From: a virus
DNA: 5,726 nucleotides
Reading direction: 5' to 3' (one strand)
Virus record (IMG/VR): IMGVR_UViG_3300029570_000099
Coordinates: 1-5,726 of that record
Shown here piece by piece: positions 896-5,009 of this stretch. Each line of letters starts with the position of its first letter. Positions within the stretch are counted from its first letter, which is position 1. The notes under the pieces were generated by a model. That model searched no databases and had not been told where the DNA came from. It saw nothing but the letters and a program-made list of their open reading frames with translations. The translations under genes and the position numbers were made by a program.

Positions 896-924
896 ATTTT
901 ACCATTTTTTTAATCGCCTGTCAA
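896..924 (-). promoter_or_regulatory. Near-consensus sigma70/sigmaA-type promoter directly upstream of the peptidase operon
   Basis: The minus strand reads TTGACA (919..924), a 17-nt spacer ggcgattaaaaaaatgg, then TAAAAT (896..901). The spacer ends in TGg, which gives an extended -10 TGn. The predicted transcription start is about 15-20 nt upstream of ATG 873, leaving a short leader that holds the GAGAGGTG SD. Confidence 0.55.
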
Positions 925-1017
925 TTGTTTTTTGGTTTGAATGGCGCTTTAGCGCCTTGCCGTGTGGAGCGTATGCGGAACGCGGCTAAATCCTTTCCTT
1001 TTTAGCGCTGTGCGCGT

Positions 1018-1191: not shown

Positions 1192-1223
1192 TTGCCTACT
1201 ACTACTCCTACAACAAGTTATAT

Positions 1224-1253
1224 ATTATACGGCGCTTGTGAGCTTGCGAACAA
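1224..1253 (-). promoter_or_regulatory. Candidate weak promoter with a perfect -10 and a poor -35
   Basis: The minus strand has TATAAT at 1229..1224 and TTGTTC (3/6 match to TTGACA) at 1253..1248, separated by an 18-nt spacer. The spacer overlaps the ggcgc...gcgcc hairpin at 1231..1260. A transcript from here would run through the TTTCAACA array toward the peptidase operon. Confidence 0.3.
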
Positions 1254-1268
1254 TAGCGCCTAAAGAGC

Positions 1269-1311
1269 CGCGCGTGCGCGCGTGTGCGTTTCGCGCGCGT
1301 GCGCACGCGCG
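1269..1311. repeat. GC-rich inverted repeat (hairpin or cruciform) made of two 20-nt perfectly alternating pyrimidine-purine tracts
   Basis: Arm 1 is cgcgcgtgcgcgcgtgtgcg (1269..1288), followed by ttt, then arm 2 cgcgcgcgtgcgcacgcgcg (1292..1311). The arms pair over 20 positions: 17 Watson-Crick pairs plus 3 G.T pairs on the plus strand, which become A.C mismatches on the minus strand. The outer 11 bp are perfect. Both arms are strict (YR)10 and therefore Z-DNA-prone. By eye the GC content is far above the rest of the genome. Confidence 0.85.
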
Positions 1312-1330
1312 ATAAAGTATAGCTATTTGA

Positions 1331-1347
1331 TAGACTGAATAGACTGA
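1331..1347. repeat. Short tandem repeat, tagactga-a-tagactga
   Basis: TAGACTGA occurs at 1331..1338 and 1340..1347 (9-bp period), immediately after TTGATAG-type sequence (atttgatagactga). Confidence 0.7.
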
Positions 1348-1364: not shown

Positions 1365-1403
1365 TGACAAAAGCCCAGTATCTTACTTGATAGGTACTGG
1401 GCT
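1365..1403 (-). terminator. Perfect 9-bp hairpin downstream of VP4, a possible intrinsic terminator and/or origin hairpin
   Basis: The stem is agcccagta (1372..1380) paired with tactgggct (1395..1403), with a 14-nt loop tcttacttgatagg. On the coding strand it reads AGCCCAGTA-loop-TACTGGGCTTTTGTCATC and begins 19 nt after the VP4 stop. The T-run is short (4 T, one of them in the stem) and the loop is large, so terminator strength is uncertain. Confidence 0.4.
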
Positions 1404-1422
1404 AGGTGACACCATGACACTG

Positions 1423-2442
1423 TTAAAGTGTCCCTCTCTTTTTCATCTGCTTCTTTATCACTCTCTCTTTCGTTTTGCATTGTTCTGCAAAGTTTGCATT
1501 TTCGTACTTTAGCCGGTTTTCTGCTATGGCCGCTGCTTGTCTGTTCTGTTTAATTCTCCACAATCTTTGTGGGTTTTCCGCTTCCATCATTTTTTCATAA
1601 TAACGTGGAATTTGTGCGCGTTTGCCGTTTGTGCATTGGATATACCCTTGTTTCCAGATCTCTGCTTTGTGTTCTTGATAGTAGTGATCTCCTAGACCTG
1701 GTTTAAGGCTCATACATGCAAAAGGTTTTTGTTGCCCTAGTTCATAGTATACGTTTGCTTTCTGTCCGTCAATTTCGTACATCTTTTTTGTAACGTATCC
1801 TGCAACATATCTATATGTTTCCGGTACTGCTTGTGCTATCTGTATTTGACCCATGCCCCATAGGTCTGTTAGCCATTTACTTGTGAAATATCCGTTGTGT
1901 TGTATCTTGTATAGGTGATCTAGGTCTGTTGGTCTCCATCCATATAGAATCATATGGTAATGTGGTCTTGCCGTTTGTTCTCCGTATTCTCCTGCTACGA
2001 AATAGCGTAATTTGCCTCCATAAGCCTTCCTGAGGCGTTTTAAGAACTTTTGAATGTCAGTATATAGCAACGTTTGGACGCTTTCAGGGCGCTTCTCTCC
2101 CGGTTTCCAGACGTATTGTACTTTTCGCATGATTTCGCCTGTGTTTACTATCATGCCCGGTACATGATCATCGTCATAAGTTAATGTGATAAACCAAACT
2201 TCTTCTCTTGGATAGTCTCGTGCTTCTAATTCTATACGTGTTGTCCAGTCCTCTCTCTGTCTTATTCTACATCCGATGCACTGCCCGCACGGTATTAACA
2301 TGACATCTTTTCTATACATCAGATCTTCATATTTTAGCTGCTTTCCCGATATTTCAGAAAAGCGGGCAAGTGAATACACCCGCCCGCTTATGTCTTTGTT
2401 TTCCGGGTTGTACAGCCTTATTAATGGCTTGTAACAACTCAC
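1423..2442 (-). CDS. VP4: Replication initiation protein, an HUH rolling-circle endonuclease (Microviridae VP4 / protein A family)
   Basis: The 339-aa ORF has FITLTY (motif I), RPHYHMILYG (the HUH motif, with HYH encoded at 1954..1962) and YRYVAGYVTKK (the tyrosine motif). It also has the N-terminal CYKP and the CGQCIGC cysteine cluster typical of gokushovirus VP4. The start is GTG 2442..2440, overlapping the VP2 stop as GTGA, with AGGTGA 9 nt upstream. Confidence 0.93.
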   Translation of the reverse strand: MSCYKPLIRLYNPENKDISGRVYSLARFSEISGKQLKYEDLMYRKDVMLIPCGQCIGCRIRQREDWTTRIELEARDYPREEVWFITLTYDDDHVPGMIVNTGEIMRKVQYVWKPGEKRPESVQTLLYTDIQKFLKRLRKAYGGKLRYFVAGEYGEQTARPHYHMILYGWRPTDLDHLYKIQHNGYFTSKWLTDLWGMGQIQIAQAVPETYRYVAGYVTKKMYEIDGQKANVYYELGQQKPFACMSLKPGLGDHYYQEHKAEIWKQGYIQCTNGKRAQIPRYYEKMMEAENPQRLWRIKQNRQAAAIAENRLKYENANFAEQCKTKERVIKKQMKKRGTL

Positions 2443-3308
2443 CTTAAATAATCACCTGCTTTTCTTTTTTCTCCGTAGGATCCAGTTTTGTCTTGTGGTG
2501 CTTGATAGCCGCTTTTATAGCCGCTTTTTCTGTCGCTCTTTTTTGGTACGTTTTTGTCGATAGCTTTGCTTGTGTCTTCTCCGATTTCTGTTAAGGCCTT
2601 TTGCAGTCCGTAAGGCGTCATTTGTGTAGAACTGAGCATCTGCTGCCAGCTTTGCGCTGCATTGTACCAGTCGCTTTTACTCCAACTGTTGCTTTCGTAT
2701 GCGTTAGGTACAAATCCTCCGCTTCGGCTTACTCCTAGTGCACTGCTGCTTGCAAGTCCCATACTTGCTCCACTGATTGTTCCTGCACTTCCTCCCGGTG
2801 TGCTTGCGCCGCCGTTTGCGAATGCTAAGATAGGGTTAAGCCCTGCTTTTTTCATGTCCTCAACGGCTCGCTGGTACGCTGTGTTTGACATGTGCTCTTG
2901 CCAGTTCCTGTTTGCTAGTGCTTCTGCGCTGTTGTAGTTCATTGCTACACTGTTTTCGATGTGGTTGTATACGCCTTGCATGATTGCTTGTAGCGTGTTA
3001 TAGCCCATCTGTTTTAACATACTCTGACTGTTGTATTTGCCTTGCATGGCTGCTTCTTGTCCTTGGTATGCGTATGCCTGTTTTAGCCAGTCATTGACTT
3101 GCTGTACGTTGGTGCCTGATTGACTTCCGCTTTCGGAGTGTCCGCCGCCTTGGCTTGTGCTGCCGCCGCTACTTTGGCTATTGCCTGTCTGCCCCCATCC
3201 GCCAAACGCTCCGGCTACGTTTTTAGCTGCTCCTGCAAAAGTTCCGATTGTGTTTGCTACGTTTCCCGCTACGTTTAGTGCTGTTAAGAGTCCAGATAAT
3301 CCACTCAT
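2439..3308 (-). CDS. VP2: Minor capsid / DNA pilot protein (Microviridae VP2, H-like)
   Basis: The 289-aa ORF has the hallmark block NRNWQEHMSNTAYQRAVEDMKKAGLNPILA, a Gly/Ser/Gln-rich low-complexity N-terminal half, and sits immediately after VP1. ATG 3308..3306 is the first possible start because an in-frame TAA lies directly upstream. Confidence 0.88.
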   Translation of the reverse strand: MSGLSGLLTALNVAGNVANTIGTFAGAAKNVAGAFGGWGQTGNSQSSGGSTSQGGGHSESGSQSGTNVQQVNDWLKQAYAYQGQEAAMQGKYNSQSMLKQMGYNTLQAIMQGVYNHIENSVAMNYNSAEALANRNWQEHMSNTAYQRAVEDMKKAGLNPILAFANGGASTPGGSAGTISGASMGLASSSALGVSRSGGFVPNAYESNSWSKSDWYNAAQSWQQMLSSTQMTPYGLQKALTEIGEDTSKAIDKNVPKKSDRKSGYKSGYQAPQDKTGSYGEKRKAGDYLR

Positions 3309-3347: not shown

Positions 3348-5009
3348 TTACAGTTTGTACAAGCCCGGTACGCTGTATAGTGGCATCCGTCTTGTGGTTT
3401 TGTTCGCTATGCGGATAGCGCCGAAAAATTGCGGCTCATTCTGCACGACGAGTGTGCGCGCAATTTCGGTCTTGCCTTCTTCCATCCAGTCTTGTGACAG
3501 TGTTGGTACGGTTGAATAATTGTCTGCGTAGTGCCAGAAATCCAACGTGCCTGTTGCGTTGCTTCGCATGAGGCCGCTTACCCGGTTTGGTTTCATTCGG
3601 TAGTCCGCCCAGGCCTCTTGATAGCCGAACGTTTCTTCGTCCGTTGCCGTGCCGGTCAACATGATCTCCTTTTTCTTTACAGGCTGCTCTCCCAGGTTTG
3701 CAAACTGTGGTACATAATAGTCAAGCCTGTCGCTTCTGCTCCAGAAACGTTCCAAGCCTTGCTGGTAACTGCGATTGTGTCGCACACAACAGACACCAAT
3801 TACAAACCCATGCTCTTCAAAAGATTTGGTAAAAGAGCTTTCGCTTACCGGCGTCACTGACATTGCACCAGTTTCGCCCAGCGGTAACTTATCGTTTGCC
3901 GCTGTCTGTACGATTTGGTTGATATTGACGTGATATCTGCCGCCGCCAAGGTATTCCGGCACCTGTACGGTTTTATCGCTGATAACTACGTTCCACAGTG
4001 CCTGTACCTGTTCACGGTAACGGCTGCCGCCTCGTGCGAGCGCTTCGTAGTACTGCTGTACTGCTACGGCTTTTCTTAAGTCGTTGATGGTTGCTGCGGT
4101 TACACTGCTAAGGTCTGCACCTAAGTATCCGCTCTTTTGAGTAGTGCCTTGGGATGTTGATGCGCCTACAACATGTGCAGCTTTTGGGTCGCTTACTGTT
4201 CCTACTTCATTGTATATTTCTGGTGCTCCTGAGCCTGTACCGTTCAAGTAAATGCTATTGCTTGGTGTCATCTTTTTTTTCAGGTCGGTGCTGTCGAATA
4301 GGTTTACTGCTGCGTTGCCTGCCATCGGCAGTGTTACTGCTGGCCCGCGCTGAGGATAAGGTAGACAGCTTGTGAAGTAGTCATGGAATTTGTTTACAGG
4401 CAACAGGTTTCCGCCTTTGTACGCGTTGTTTTCTGCTTCTTGCACCCAATCTTCTTTTCCAAATTCGTAGTCTACGTTTGCATCGTCTGTTTTTAATACT
4501 GCTGTGTTATCTACGTTTTCATCTCTGAAAAATTCGTTCCAGATTTTGACGTATGCTCTTATGGGCAGCGCGTTAATGCTAAATTCTTTTTTAATTTTGG
4601 TCGGTACTCCCATATAGTCCAGTATGGACCTTTCGTTTGGTTTTGGTGCTGCGTCCGTTCCTTTGATTTTGATTTGCGGCACTGCGTAATCTTTGCTTGG
4701 CATCCATGGCGTTGCCTCTACTTCTCCCATGAAGTGTTTGAAGTTGTCCCACAGAATTCTGTTAGGACAATAGAAGTAGTAGAAGTCAATGAATGCATCG
4801 TCCATCACTGGATACTTCGGTGTGCTCATTCGGATGATTGCTGCCGTGTCTACGTTGAAGGTATCGCCCGGTAATACTTCGTCAACATAGAATGGAATCA
4901 GCTTGCCGGAATCGAACGTTGTTAAAATTGTCTGATCACGGTTAAACCGCGTTCGACTTGCTTTCATTTCTGGAATCTGATTAAAGTGTCTTTCGTTGTT
5001 TCGATTCAC
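3348..5009 (-). CDS. VP1: Major capsid protein (Microviridae VP1 / F family)
   Basis: The 553-aa ORF has an N-terminus, HFNQIPEMKASRTRFNRDQTILTTFDSGKLIPFYVDEVLPGDTF...FYCPNRILWDNFKHFMGE, that matches the conserved gokushovirus VP1 opening. The size is typical. The start is GTG 5009..5007, preceded by GCAAAGGAGGAAGAAAA (AAGGAGG with a 7-nt spacer), and it overlaps the VP3 stop as GTGA. Confidence 0.95.
   Translation of the reverse strand: MNRNNERHFNQIPEMKASRTRFNRDQTILTTFDSGKLIPFYVDEVLPGDTFNVDTAAIIRMSTPKYPVMDDAFIDFYYFYCPNRILWDNFKHFMGEVEATPWMPSKDYAVPQIKIKGTDAAPKPNERSILDYMGVPTKIKKEFSINALPIRAYVKIWNEFFRDENVDNTAVLKTDDANVDYEFGKEDWVQEAENNAYKGGNLLPVNKFHDYFTSCLPYPQRGPAVTLPMAGNAAVNLFDSTDLKKKMTPSNSIYLNGTGSGAPEIYNEVGTVSDPKAAHVVGASTSQGTTQKSGYLGADLSSVTAATINDLRKAVAVQQYYEALARGGSRYREQVQALWNVVISDKTVQVPEYLGGGRYHVNINQIVQTAANDKLPLGETGAMSVTPVSESSFTKSFEEHGFVIGVCCVRHNRSYQQGLERFWSRSDRLDYYVPQFANLGEQPVKKKEIMLTGTATDEETFGYQEAWADYRMKPNRVSGLMRSNATGTLDFWHYADNYSTVPTLSQDWMEEGKTEIARTLVVQNEPQFFGAIRIANKTTRRMPLYSVPGLYKL

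What the first reader, a model, noticed from the sequence alone, without database searches (positions are those of the whole stretch)
1269..1311. 43-nt GC-rich hairpin built from two (YR)10 tracts, a Z-DNA/cruciform-prone island in an AT-leaning genome
Two 20-nt perfectly alternating pyrimidine-purine tracts (CG/TG only, with one CA) are separated by TTT and are mutually complementary: 17 Watson-Crick pairs plus 3 G.T pairs. Composition and structure are unlike anything else in the window. In an ssDNA phage, such a hairpin is an obvious candidate for the complementary-strand priming signal. The comparisons are the PriA/primase recognition hairpins of phiX174 and G4, or the sso elements of RCR plasmids. 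It could also be a packaging or Rep-termination signal. In the supercoiled replicative form it could extrude as a cruciform or flip to Z-DNA. It lies inside the spurious 90-aa ORF of the track.
Basis: seen in the sequence. Interest (0 to 1): 0.62.

Follow-up and report, generated by a model that had tools for sequence, protein, structure and literature searches.

The report
Strand-specific CG hairpin of gut gokushoviruses
A 43-base GC-rich hairpin in the gene-free region of this small gut phage is kept, with compensating changes, by about a hundred related phages and pairs fully on only one strand, the one opposite the genes, so it is a candidate start signal for second-strand synthesis and a clue to which strand these phages package.

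Summary
Window 1269-1311 is a 20-bp/TTT hairpin made of two (YR)10 tracts, with 17 Watson-Crick and 3 G.T pairs on the + strand. No simulated sequence reaches that stem length.

The window is a circular gut gokushovirus with all genes on the minus strand. The hairpin lies in the promoter-to-terminator gap and is probably not transcribed.

About 100 related genomes from at least four gokushovirus lineages keep an equivalent hairpin:
- The stem is 20 bp in the gut clade and the loop is 3-4 nt.
- 98% of cells are paired, and 9 of 20 pairs show double compensatory changes.
- 97% of steps alternate pyrimidine-purine.

The non-Watson-Crick pairs are almost always G.T on the non-coding strand (201, against 5 A.C).

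That strand is also the T-rich strand at four-fold sites. It also carries the conserved phiX-like hairpin (loop CTTGAT followed by GGTGACACC). All three features sit together on the coding strand in T-rich-coding gokushoviruses.

My reading is a single-stranded-DNA signal on the displaced, and probably packaged, strand. It is most likely an SSB-resistant landmark for complementary-strand initiation. That function is inferred, not shown.

Z-DNA or cruciform, an RNA element, a terminator and a coding region are all less supported. One complete relative lacks the hairpin.

Earlier notes of this scan had already raised the strand bias and opposite-strand packaging on other DNA.

The parts
1269..1288 (+). 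5' arm of the hairpin, (YR)10: CGCGCGTGCGCGCGTGTGCG
   Evidence: stem positions 1-20 are paired in 91-100% of 60 unique homologues
1289..1291 (+). loop TTT (3 or 4 nt in all homologues: CTT, TTT, CTAT and others)
   Evidence: loop is 3 nt in 32 and 4 nt in 28 of 60 unique hairpins
1292..1311 (+). 3' arm, (YR)10: CGCGCGCGTGCGCACGCGCG
1231..1260 (+). second, optional hairpin GGCGCT-[18 nt, conserved]-AGCGCC. It is present in about half of the close relatives and absent in the others.
   Evidence: G-C to A-T double changes (AGCGCT/AGCGCT, GGCACT/AGTGCC, AACGCT/AGCGTT). Three sequences carry the G.T intermediate on the + strand and none carries A.C.
1330..1347 (+). tandem 9-mer ATAGACTGA x2 between the hairpin and the ori-like hairpin. 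Many relatives read ACTTGATAGACTGAAT here.
   Evidence: read from the sequence; function not tested
1372..1413 (+). ori-like hairpin: 12-bp stem (one T.G on the + strand), loop TACTTGAT, then AGGTGACACC. On the - strand the same hairpin is followed by TTTTG, so it is the likely Rep terminator.
   Evidence: stems covary, and the loop CTTGAT plus GGTGACAC is conserved. It lies on the non-coding strand here and in L114, and on the coding strand in L187 and Chp2.
1196..1230 (+). (CTA)n run and AT-rich block AAGTTATATATTATAC immediately 5' of the hairpins. This is the end of the DnaA-box-like cassette (1018-1230) described by earlier notes.
   Evidence: The cassette is inverted relative to the genes in L091, L094, L097 and L098, while the hairpin asymmetry is not.
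896..924 (-). strong sigma-70-type promoter TTGACA-17-TAAAAT (TG before the -10) for the peptidase operon. Together with the terminator at 1403-1365, it leaves about 924-1365 probably untranscribed.

Best explanation
The element is a conserved hairpin that works as single-stranded DNA on one particular strand, the window + strand, which is antisense to all genes.

Shown here:
- It is kept in about 100 gokushovirus genomes.
- The stem length is fixed at 20 bp in the gut clade, with a 3-4-nt loop.
- There are compensatory changes, and the wobble pattern tolerates G.T on that strand while purging A.C.

Inferred:
- That strand is the one displaced by rolling-circle replication and packaged. It carries the phiX-like nick hairpin (loop CTTGAT, then GGTGACACC), and it shows the X-to-T substitution bias typical of exposed ssDNA.
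- In the incoming or displaced single strand, the 20-bp G+C-rich duplex resists coating by SSB. It then serves as the landmark where a host priming system (RNA polymerase, primase or a PriA-type primosome) starts synthesis of the complementary strand, which here is the coding strand. That makes it functionally an sso or oric.
- Its place fits this role. It lies 60 nt 5' of the putative nick in this genome, 10-170 nt in the close clade, and about 1 kb in other lineages. It is therefore among the last sequences to be displaced, as is usual for the single-strand origins of rolling-circle plasmids.

The strict Py-Pu alternation is explained at least in part by descent from a (CG)n hairpin. Such a hairpin can only drift through G.T intermediates, that is by transitions, which keep purines as purines.
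For: Real and non-random:
-.

Conserved:
- 62 of 68 anchored IMG/VR relatives have it.
- Six of eight more distant GenBank relatives have it, with quite different sequences.
- Three of six further GenBank records have it.
- 32 microvirus-size contigs from a pattern scan have it. These include a separate 4.5-5.0 kb, ~55% G+C gokushovirus clade that lacks the DnaA cassette.

Pairing is selected:
- Stem positions 1-20 are 91-100% paired, while positions 21 and 23-24 are only 30-41% paired (position 22: 74%).
- On alignment A1, 98% of cells are paired, 9/20 pairs have changes on both sides, and 0/500 shuffles reach the observed values. Partners slid by +-2 give only 87-90% pairing and 2-3 such pairs.

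Strand-specific:
- There are 201 G.T against 5 A.C over 60 unique hairpins.
- On the Rep tree there are 47 WC-to-G.T events against 7 WC-to-A.C events. Tested against the 2.5:1 mutational expectation, p = 0.005.
- The mean dG is -23.6 against -18.2 kcal/mol, and the non-coding strand is more stable in 43/45 cases.
- Hairpin 2 shows the same bias.

The asymmetry follows the gene strand, not the DnaA cassette, in genomes where the cassette is inverted (L091, L094, L098).

Co-orientation:
- In 30/32 contigs the G.T strand is the T-rich strand at four-fold sites. Four of these are T-rich-coding genomes in which the G.T pairs are on the coding strand.
- The ori-like hairpin is on the same strand in 7/7 contigs where my filter found it (L222).
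- The ori-like hairpin plus GGTGACACC is non-coding in the window and L114, and coding in L187. Chp2 and SpV4 have the ACTTG-loop hairpin on the coding strand.

Substitution spectrum at four-fold sites:
- Per-base rates for C>T, G>T and A>T are 2.5-4x higher on the non-coding strand.
- ssDNA phages normally favour NNT on the packaged strand (PMC3278643). Here A is 52% and T is 11.5% on the coding strand.

Not RNA, coding or a terminator:
-.

Precedent:
- Intergenic hairpins have been proposed as negative-strand initiation sites in other microviruses (PMC9865509).
Against: - No direct evidence of priming exists, and no recognisable primase, RNAP or PriA determinant was found in or beside the hairpin.
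- The complete genome KT264798 has no (YR)n hairpin anywhere. L076 also lacks it and L015 has it truncated. The element is therefore dispensable, replaceable, or lost in assembly.
- Chp2, SpV4 and phiMH2K have none.
- The textbook polarity of Microviridae (packaged strand = coding strand) would put the best fold on a strand that is never free.
- The same C>T bias that makes the strand T-rich also creates T.G pairs, so part of the asymmetry is mutational rather than selective.
- The Py-Pu alternation is conserved across deep lineages more strictly than a plain stability requirement needs. This hints at a property I have not explained.
- Relatives are phylogenetically non-independent.
- The pattern scan forced one T.G on the pattern strand.
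Confidence: 0.4

Rival explanations
1. It is an accessory element of the viral-strand origin or of packaging. In this reading, a duplex landmark on the displaced strand is recognised by Rep (VP4), the small DNA-binding protein or the procapsid. It would help termination and re-ligation or entry of the strand into the capsid, not priming.
For: - In the gut clade it sits 10-170 nt 5' of the ori-like hairpin, on the same strand.
- HUH enzymes such as relaxases, IS200/IS605 TnpA and parvovirus Rep commonly read hairpins near their nick sites (established knowledge).
- It shows the same strand specificity as the ori-like hairpin.
Against: - The distance to the ori-like hairpin is not fixed. It is about 1.0-1.3 kb in L114 and L187.
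- In L094 the hairpin sits before the Rep gene, far from the position after the Rep stop where relatives carry the ori-like hairpin.
- phiX-type Rep needs no such hairpin (established knowledge).
Confidence: 0.2
2. It is a non-B DNA element of the double-stranded replicative form. In this reading, the alternating Py-Pu tracts flip to Z-DNA or the palindrome extrudes as a cruciform. This absorbs supercoils and tunes opening of the adjacent AT-rich/DnaA module or promoter activity.
For: - 97% Py-Pu alternation is kept across divergent lineages.
- There are two 10-repeat CG/TG tracts, which is the classic Z-forming composition (established knowledge).
- AT-rich flanks favour extrusion (established knowledge).
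- It adjoins the AT-rich block in this clade.
Against: - A duplex-level function gives no reason for G.T on one strand and never A.C (201:5).
- Z-DNA needs no central loop and no arm-to-arm register, yet both are conserved.
- The 3-nt loop puts the two tracts out of alternation phase.
- The element also occurs in clades without the DnaA/AT module.
- Transitions through G.T intermediates would preserve alternation without selection for it.
Confidence: 0.12
3. The polarity is canonical and there is no strand-specific function. In this reading the coding strand is packaged and the hairpin acts there with its A.C mismatches, or merely exists. The G.T pattern is only the footprint of a genome-wide G>A bias on the coding strand.
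For: - Microviridae are described as positive-sense (established knowledge).
- The substitution bias is real, at 2.5:1, and by itself predicts more T.G than A.C on the + strand.
- phiMH2K also has an A-rich coding strand.
- The coding-strand fold is still about -18 to -20 kcal/mol.
Against: - The event ratio of 47:7 exceeds 2.5:1 (p = 0.005), and the standing ratio is 40:1.
- The bias itself, with all X>T on the non-coding strand, is what ssDNA exposure produces. It is the mirror image of Chp2, SpV4 and L187.
- The ori-like hairpin flips together with it.
Confidence: 0.1
4. It is a selfish or neutral (CG)n palindromic microsatellite. In this reading it is generated and kept uniform by slippage and intrastrand template switching, and has no role for the phage.
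For: - The arms are also direct repeats of a CGCGCGTG-like unit (family D2).
- Quasipalindrome correction can mimic compensatory change (established knowledge).
- Some genomes lack it.
Against: - It is single-copy with a fixed 20-bp stem and a sharp boundary.
- It is retained at 54-97% Rep identity and in separate clades.
- Template switching would erase G.T pairs, yet they persist at the same positions.
- A.C states are rare and confined to tips.
Confidence: 0.1
5. It is an RNA element: a G.U-containing hairpin in an antisense small RNA, or a stabiliser or processing site in read-through mRNA.
For: - G.U pairs are well tolerated in RNA.
- A 20-bp stem is RNase III-sized (established knowledge).
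- In L187 the hairpin lies between two genes on the coding strand and would be transcribed.
Against: - In the window it lies between the Rep terminator and the only strong promoter.
- No promoter-like site points into it on the + strand, and there is no T-tract after it on either strand.
- There is no Rfam match.
- Its orientation relative to the genes flips between lineages, while its orientation relative to the ori-like hairpin does not.
Confidence: 0.08

Closest known systems
phiX174 primosome assembly site (n'/PriA recognition hairpin, F-G intergenic region) and G4 oric (primase hairpins)
   Same: - It is a single-copy, intergenic, stable hairpin in a microvirus genome that would stay duplex in SSB-coated ssDNA.
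- It is separate from the Rep nick site.
- The proposed role is to start complementary-strand synthesis.
   Different: - I recognised no sequence likeness.
- It is one plain 20-bp uninterrupted stem, not a mismatched 44-55-nt hairpin (phiX174) or three hairpins with a CTG start (G4).
- Its composition is alternating CG/TG.
- It folds on the strand opposite the genes.
- Function is untested.
Single-strand origins (ssoA/ssoT/ssoU/ssoW) of rolling-circle plasmids of Firmicutes
   Same: - It is strand- and orientation-specific folded ssDNA.
- It lies upstream of the putative double-strand origin, so it is displaced last.
- It is dispensable or exchangeable between relatives.
- The presumed host phylum is the same (earlier notes).
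   Different: - It is much shorter, at 43 nt against 150-300 nt.
- The loop is TTT, with no CS-6 (TAGCGT/A) in it.
- No RS-B was recognised.
- TAGCGC words occur nearby on the same strand, but I did not test them.
Intergenic hairpins of roodoodoo- and reekeekeeviruses (PMC9865509)
   Same: - They are hairpins predicted in microvirus intergenic regions.
- They have compensatory substitutions in both arms.
- They were proposed, but not certified, as negative-strand initiation sites.
   Different: - They come from different clades, with different sequences and sizes (13-22 nt and 64 nt).
- No Py-Pu alternation or strand-asymmetry analysis was reported there.
Z-DNA-forming d(CG/TG)n tracts and cruciform-forming palindromes in supercoiled DNA
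   Same: - The composition and symmetry match: two (YR)10 tracts forming a near-perfect inverted repeat with a 3-nt spacer.
   Different: The conservation pattern (G.T on one strand only, conserved loop, register-specific covariation) points to a one-strand hairpin rather than a duplex-level structure.
Single-stranded promoters and minus-strand origins read by RNA polymerase (M13/f1 ori(-), F plasmid Frpo)
   Same: - A hairpin on the entering single strand is used by a host enzyme to make a primer.
   Different: There are no -35/-10-like hexamers or characteristic bulges in the stem. The stem is perfect on the folding strand.

Membership tests
Complementary-strand origin of Microviridae (phiX174 PAS / G4 oric type) | Stable hairpin(s) on the packaged single strand, in a non-coding region | tested here: inconclusive
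   The hairpin is non-coding and stable on the + strand. Whether the + strand is the packaged one is inferred from three co-oriented features.
Complementary-strand origin of Microviridae (phiX174 PAS / G4 oric type) | Supports PriA-dependent primosome assembly or direct primase priming on SSB-coated ssDNA | not testable with these tools
   This needs an in vitro ssDNA-to-RF assay.
G4-type oric | Three adjacent hairpins with a primase start trinucleotide just 3' of hairpin I | tested here: not met
   There are one or two hairpins only. A CTA lies 12 nt 3' in the window, but the 3' flank is not conserved among relatives.
ssoA-type single-strand origin of rolling-circle plasmids | Long imperfect palindrome with RS-B and a CS-6 (TAGCGT/A) terminal loop | tested here: not met
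   The element is 43 nt with loop TTT, CTT or CTAT. The definition of CS-6 and RS-B is recalled from the literature, not checked against a model.
ssoA-type single-strand origin of rolling-circle plasmids | Orientation-specific; placed upstream of the double-strand origin on the displaced strand | tested here: met
   It is on the same strand as, and 5' of, the ori-like hairpin in the window, L085, L088, L089, L091, L092, L096 and L098. This is conditional on that hairpin being the nick site.
RNA-polymerase-read ssDNA origin/promoter (M13 ori(-), Frpo) | -35 and -10-like hexamers reconstituted in the hairpin stem | tested here: not met
   There is no promoter-like site within 1269-1311 on either strand.
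Z-DNA-forming tract | Run of alternating pyrimidine-purine, CG/TG-rich, of at least about 12 bp | tested here: met
   There are two 20-nt perfectly alternating tracts, and 97% alternation across homologues.
Z-DNA-forming tract | B-to-Z transition at physiological superhelicity in the replicative form | not testable with these tools
   This needs antibody or chemical probing of supercoiled clones.
Cruciform-forming inverted repeat | Near-perfect inverted repeat with a short spacer | tested here: met
   The arms are 20 nt with a 3-nt spacer. Extrusion itself is not testable here.
Intrinsic (rho-independent) terminator | G+C-rich hairpin followed by a T/U tract | tested here: not met
   The scan finds none at this site. 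The flanks are ATAAAG (+) and GCTCTTTAGG (-).
Any Rfam RNA family | Covariance-model match | tested here: not met
   There is no hit at 1269-1311 at E <= 1.

The most novel reading that the evidence does not exclude
The hairpin is one of three co-oriented markers. The other two are the phiX-like nick hairpin CTTGAT plus GGTGACACC, and X>T substitution bias with T-richness at four-fold sites. Together they suggest that this gut gokushovirus clade, and a second 4.5-5.0 kb clade, displace and package the strand complementary to all their genes. They would then be negative-sense Microviridae. The (YR)n hairpin would be their origin for synthesis of the coding strand. Sister lineages (L187, L138, L191, L222, Chp2) keep the same three markers on the coding strand.
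Probability: 0.5. Interest if true: 0.85.

Novelty: new variant of a known kind. Interest (0 to 1): 0.62.

Why it matters
Gokushoviruses are among the most abundant phages of the human and animal gut, yet their replication signals have never been mapped. If this reading holds, three things follow:

- **A concrete candidate signal.** This element is single-copy and widely conserved, which makes it a testable candidate for the step every ssDNA phage must perform first, making the second strand.
- **A sequence-only test of folding strand.** The one-sided G.T pattern shows from sequence alone which strand folds, and so probably which strand is single-stranded.
- **A challenge to the positive-sense rule.** Combined with the ori-like hairpin and the codon-position bias, it challenges the assumption that all Microviridae package the coding strand. 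That would affect annotation conventions, the interpretation of strand-specific virome libraries, and models of ssDNA mutation bias.

If instead the hairpin works as Z-DNA or a cruciform in the replicative form, it would be a rare case of a conserved non-B DNA element in a phage.

Tried and rejected
- **Rfam.** A scan of the whole window at E <= 1 gave nothing at the site.
- **Terminator or promoter reading.** Rejected. There is no T-tract and there are no hexamers at the site.
- **Coding reading.** The 90-aa ORF is rejected. It has no PHROG hit and the frame is not conserved in relatives.
- **DnaA-open-complex idea.** I considered that the free strand opposite the DnaA-trio strand folds. This is not supported, because in genomes with the cassette inverted (L091, L094, L098) the wobble strand stays with the gene/ori polarity.
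- **XerCD/dif-like, integron attC-like and parvovirus RBE-like readings.** I considered these from memory only and dropped them. I saw no dif-like core, no extrahelical bases on the folding strand, and no fixed spacing to the nick hairpin.
- **Restriction-site idea.** CGCG and GCGC are not strongly avoided elsewhere in the genome (O/E 0.68 and 1.58 outside the hairpin), so no case could be made.
- **Reference gokushoviruses.** Chp2, SpV4 and phiMH2K have no (YR)n hairpin.
- **Mirror data set.** I looked for a T-rich-coding clade around L187, but only three relatives were found. The directional substitution analysis could therefore not be repeated there.
- **Pattern scan.** The accepted pattern also hits many high-G+C phage contigs that are unrelated.
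- **Literature.** Searches found no description of this hairpin, of Z-DNA in Microviridae, or of negative-sense microviruses.
Full report
**What the window is.** The 5726-nt window is a complete circular genome of 5635 nt plus a 91-nt terminal redundancy (family D1). It belongs to a human/pig-gut gokushovirus. All recognisable genes lie on the window minus strand:
- major capsid protein, 3348-5009
- DNA pilot protein, 2439-3308
- replication initiator VP4, 1423-2442
- an internal structural protein
- a small DNA-binding protein
- an M15-type peptidase, 481-882

The closest GenBank genomes are human-gut gokushoviruses at 75-83% identity. The finding lies in the 540-nt gene-free region between VP4 and the peptidase gene.

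**The observation.** The sequence at 1269-1311 is exactly as described: CGCGCGTGCGCGCGTGTGCG, then TTT, then CGCGCGCGTGCGCACGCGCG.
- Each arm is a perfect (Py-Pu)10 run.
- On the + strand the arms form 20 uninterrupted pairs, 17 Watson-Crick and 3 G.T.
- As DNA the + strand folds at -27.0 kcal/mol. Only 1 of 200 dinucleotide shuffles folds as well.
- The minus strand reaches only -20.4 kcal/mol, because the wobbles become A.C.
- A 20-pair stem is far beyond chance. The next longest on that strand is 9, and 200 Markov-simulated genomes give 8-15.
- The 90-aa ORF that runs over it has no family match, and its frame is not conserved in relatives.

**Conservation.** I fetched 80 IMG/VR relatives through VP4, at 85-97% protein identity. 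In the 68 that could be anchored on both sides, 62 carry a full hairpin at the same place. This holds although the flanks differ by indels, and although a second hairpin (window 1231-1260) comes and goes.

More distant GenBank relatives also carry a hairpin. Six of eight have one of the same build but with clearly different sequence, and so do three of six further records.

A pattern scan of IMG/VR found 32 more microvirus-size contigs with a clear hairpin. These include a separate 4.5-5.0-kb, ~55% G+C clade that PHROG matches show to be gokushoviruses. That clade has no DnaA-box cassette.

Counting outward from the loop in 60 unique hairpins:
- Positions 1-20 are paired in 91-100% of sequences.
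- Positions 21 and 23-24 are paired in only 30-41% (position 22 in 74%).
- The loop is always 3 or 4 nt.
- 97% of steps alternate Py-Pu.

On a gap-free alignment of 22 distinct 43-mers:
- 98% of cells are standard pairs.
- 9 of 20 pairs have changes on both sides.
- No shuffle in 500 reaches the observed values.
- Sliding the partners by two columns keeps the CG register, yet gives only 87-90% pairing and 2-3 double changes.

Pairing in this exact register is therefore maintained. It is not just a by-product of (CG)n being self-complementary.

**Strand asymmetry.** The non-Watson-Crick positions are nearly always G.T on the window + strand, which is the non-coding strand.
- There are 201 G.T against 5 A.C over 60 unique hairpins.
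- The non-coding strand is the more stable one in 43 of 45 stems trimmed to 20 bp. The mean is -23.6 against -18.2 kcal/mol.
- Mapped on the VP4 tree, 47 changes create G.T and 7 create A.C.
- The background transition bias at four-fold sites is 2.5:1. The excess over that is significant (p = 0.005).
- A.C states hardly persist.
- The second hairpin behaves the same way. It has four kinds of G-C to A-T double change, and the only intermediates seen are G.T on the + strand.

In genomes where the neighbouring DnaA-box/trio cassette is inverted relative to the genes (L091, L094, L098), the wobble strand stays with the non-coding strand. The asymmetry therefore belongs to the genome's polarity, not to the cassette.

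**Which strand is single-stranded?** Three independent features point the same way.

1. *Composition and substitutions at four-fold sites.*
   - The coding strand has A 52% and T 11.5% at four-fold sites. Chp2 and SpV4 have T 51% and T 66%.
   - ssDNA phages in general prefer NNT, which is attributed to C>T damage of the exposed strand (PMC3278643).
   - Direction-resolved substitutions on the VP4 tree show C>T, G>T and A>T each 2.5-4 times more frequent per base on the non-coding strand than on the coding strand.

2. *The Rep-proximal hairpin at 1372-1403.*
   - It has a covarying stem, a conserved loop CTTGAT (phiX174 is nicked in CAACTTG/ATA; established knowledge), and a conserved 3' tail GGTGACACC.
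   - All of these read on the non-coding strand here, in relatives and in the 4.5-kb clade.
   - In L187, a gokushovirus with T-rich coding strand and genes confirmed on the + strand, the same hairpin plus GGTGACACC is on the coding strand.
   - In Chp2 the strongest hairpin of the genome is on the coding strand. Its loop is TCTACTTGAT, followed by GGTGA. SpV4 has a similar one.

3. *The G.T strand of the (YR)n hairpin.*
   - In 30 of 32 contigs it is the T-rich strand at four-fold sites.
   - Four of these are T-rich-coding genomes where the G.T strand is the coding strand (L138, L181, L187, L191). L222 adds a fifth.
   - The ori-like hairpin is on the same strand in all 7 contigs where my strict filter found it.

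The simplest reading is that the strand marked by all three features is the one displaced by rolling-circle replication and packaged. In the window's clade that strand is antisense to the genes. This is an inference and has several caveats:
- The polarity of Chp2 and SpV4 is taken from textbook knowledge.
- The relatives are not independent.
- Codon selection cannot be excluded.
- The mutational bias contributes to the wobble pattern.

Earlier notes of this scan, on this and other genomes, had already raised the mismatch bias and opposite-strand packaging. I treated them as leads and tested them with my own data.

**Anatomy of the region** (window + strand, 5' to 3'):
- Reverse complement of the strong peptidase-operon promoter TTGACA-17-TAAAAT, at 924-896
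- GC palindromes
- The DnaA-box-like array with the (CTA)n run and the AT-rich block, 1018-1230
- The optional hairpin 2, 1231-1260
- The (YR)n hairpin, 1269-1311
- A tandem ATAGACTGA x2, 1330-1347
- The ori-like hairpin, 1372-1403, with GGTGACACC following
- The end of VP4

On the coding strand the ori-like hairpin is followed by TTTTG, so it probably also terminates the genome-length transcript. This leaves about 924-1365 untranscribed, which argues against an RNA role.

**Mechanism.**

*Shown:* a single-copy hairpin under selection for pairing on one defined strand.

*Inferred:* it acts in single-stranded DNA of the displaced or packaged strand.

*Most likely role (about 0.4):* a duplex island that SSB cannot melt and from which a host priming system starts complementary-strand synthesis. 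It would be the functional analogue of the phiX174 PAS, the G4 oric, the M13 ori(-) and plasmid sso elements. Four points fit this:
- It is strand- and orientation-specific.
- It lies 5' of the putative nick, so it is exposed last.
- It is separate from the nick hairpin in other lineages, by about 1 kb in L114 and L187.
- It is occasionally absent, as exchangeable sso elements are (KT264798).

The alternation of Py and Pu can be inherited. A (CG)n stem that evolves through G.T intermediates changes only by transitions. Its depth of conservation is nevertheless not fully explained.

*Rivals:*
- An origin or packaging accessory (0.2).
- Z-DNA or cruciform in the replicative form (0.12). This is disfavoured by the one-sided wobbles, the conserved loop and the register-specific covariation.
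- Canonical polarity with a purely mutational asymmetry (0.1).
- A selfish palindromic microsatellite (0.1).
- An RNA element (0.08).

**Comparison with what is known.** The element works like a single-strand origin, but it is not a member of any defined family that I could test:
- It has no three-hairpin G4 layout.
- It has no CS-6 loop or length of ssoA.
- It has no promoter-like hexamers as in M13 or Frpo.
- It has no Rfam match.
- Its composition meets the sequence definition of a Z-forming tract and of a cruciform-prone palindrome, but the conservation pattern does not point to those forms.

The nearest published parallel is the set of intergenic hairpins with compensatory changes in roodoodoo- and reekeekeeviruses. 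Those were proposed, but explicitly not certified, as negative-strand initiation sites (PMC9865509). I found no paper describing this hairpin, Z-DNA in Microviridae, or negative-sense microviruses.

**Verdict.** This is a real, non-random, widely conserved and strand-specific DNA hairpin. I class it as a new variant of a known kind (single-strand signals of ssDNA replicons) with function still to be shown. Its main value is twofold. It is a concrete candidate for the unmapped complementary-strand origin of gut gokushoviruses. It is also one of three concordant markers suggesting that this clade packages the strand opposite its genes.

Noticed in passing
window 1372-1413; L187 about 1165-1213; L114 (minus strand, near + coordinates 100-190); L083 (Chp2) 2896-2945: A hairpin with loop ...CTTGAT... 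followed by GGTGACACC is conserved across gokushovirus lineages. It lies on the non-coding strand in the window and L114, but on the coding strand in L187 and Chp2. In the window's clade the same hairpin, read on the coding strand, is followed by TTTTG and probably doubles as the Rep terminator.
   Followed up: partly
window, all long ORFs; L002-L081 VP4 genes: Four-fold degenerate sites on the coding strand are A 52%, T 11.5%. This is the mirror image of the NNT preference of Chp2, SpV4 and ssDNA phages in general. On the VP4 tree C>T, G>T and A>T are each 2.5-4 times more frequent per base on the non-coding strand. phiMH2K is also A-rich and G-poor on its coding strand.
   Followed up: partly
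L091 (KT264801), L094 (KT264784), L097 (KT264800), L098 (MG945867): The DnaA-box/(CTA)n/AT-rich cassette is inverted relative to the genes in these relatives. In L094 and L095 it sits between VP2 and VP4 instead of after VP4. GGCGCT/AGCGCC palindromes flank the cassette in the window (943-956 and 1231-1260) and could mediate inversion.
   Followed up: partly
window 1231-1260: The second hairpin GGCGCT-[TGTGAGCTTGCGAACAAT]-AGCGCC has a conserved 18-nt interior and compensatory stem changes. It is precisely absent from about half of the close relatives.
   Followed up: partly
L219 (KT264798, complete 5477 nt); L076; L015: One complete relative has no (YR)n hairpin anywhere. L076 lacks it at the usual site, and L015 has only the 5' arm. 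This could be genuine loss or collapse of a GC palindrome during assembly; I could not tell which.
   Followed up: partly
L114 1212-1256 and the other 4.5-5.0 kb contigs (L106, L110, L121, L125, L130, L132, L148, L153, L178, L188, L198, L204, L206, L209): In this second clade the hairpin (14-16 bp, flanked by CT-rich runs on the folding strand) overlaps the last ~20 codons of the VP4 ORF on the opposite strand. There it would encode an Arg-rich tail, so one sequence may serve two uses.
   Followed up: no
window 949-954, 1001-1006, 1254-1259 (+ strand): The word TAGCGC occurs three times on the + strand of the non-coding region and not on the other strand. As I recall, it resembles the CS-6 motif (TAGCGT/A) of plasmid ssoA elements. 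I did not check this against any model or in distant relatives.
   Followed up: no
window 1330-1347: A tandem 9-mer ATAGACTGA x2 lies between the (YR)n hairpin and the ori-like hairpin. Many relatives read ACTTGATAGACTGAAT here, which is a second copy of the loop word of the ori-like hairpin.
   Followed up: no
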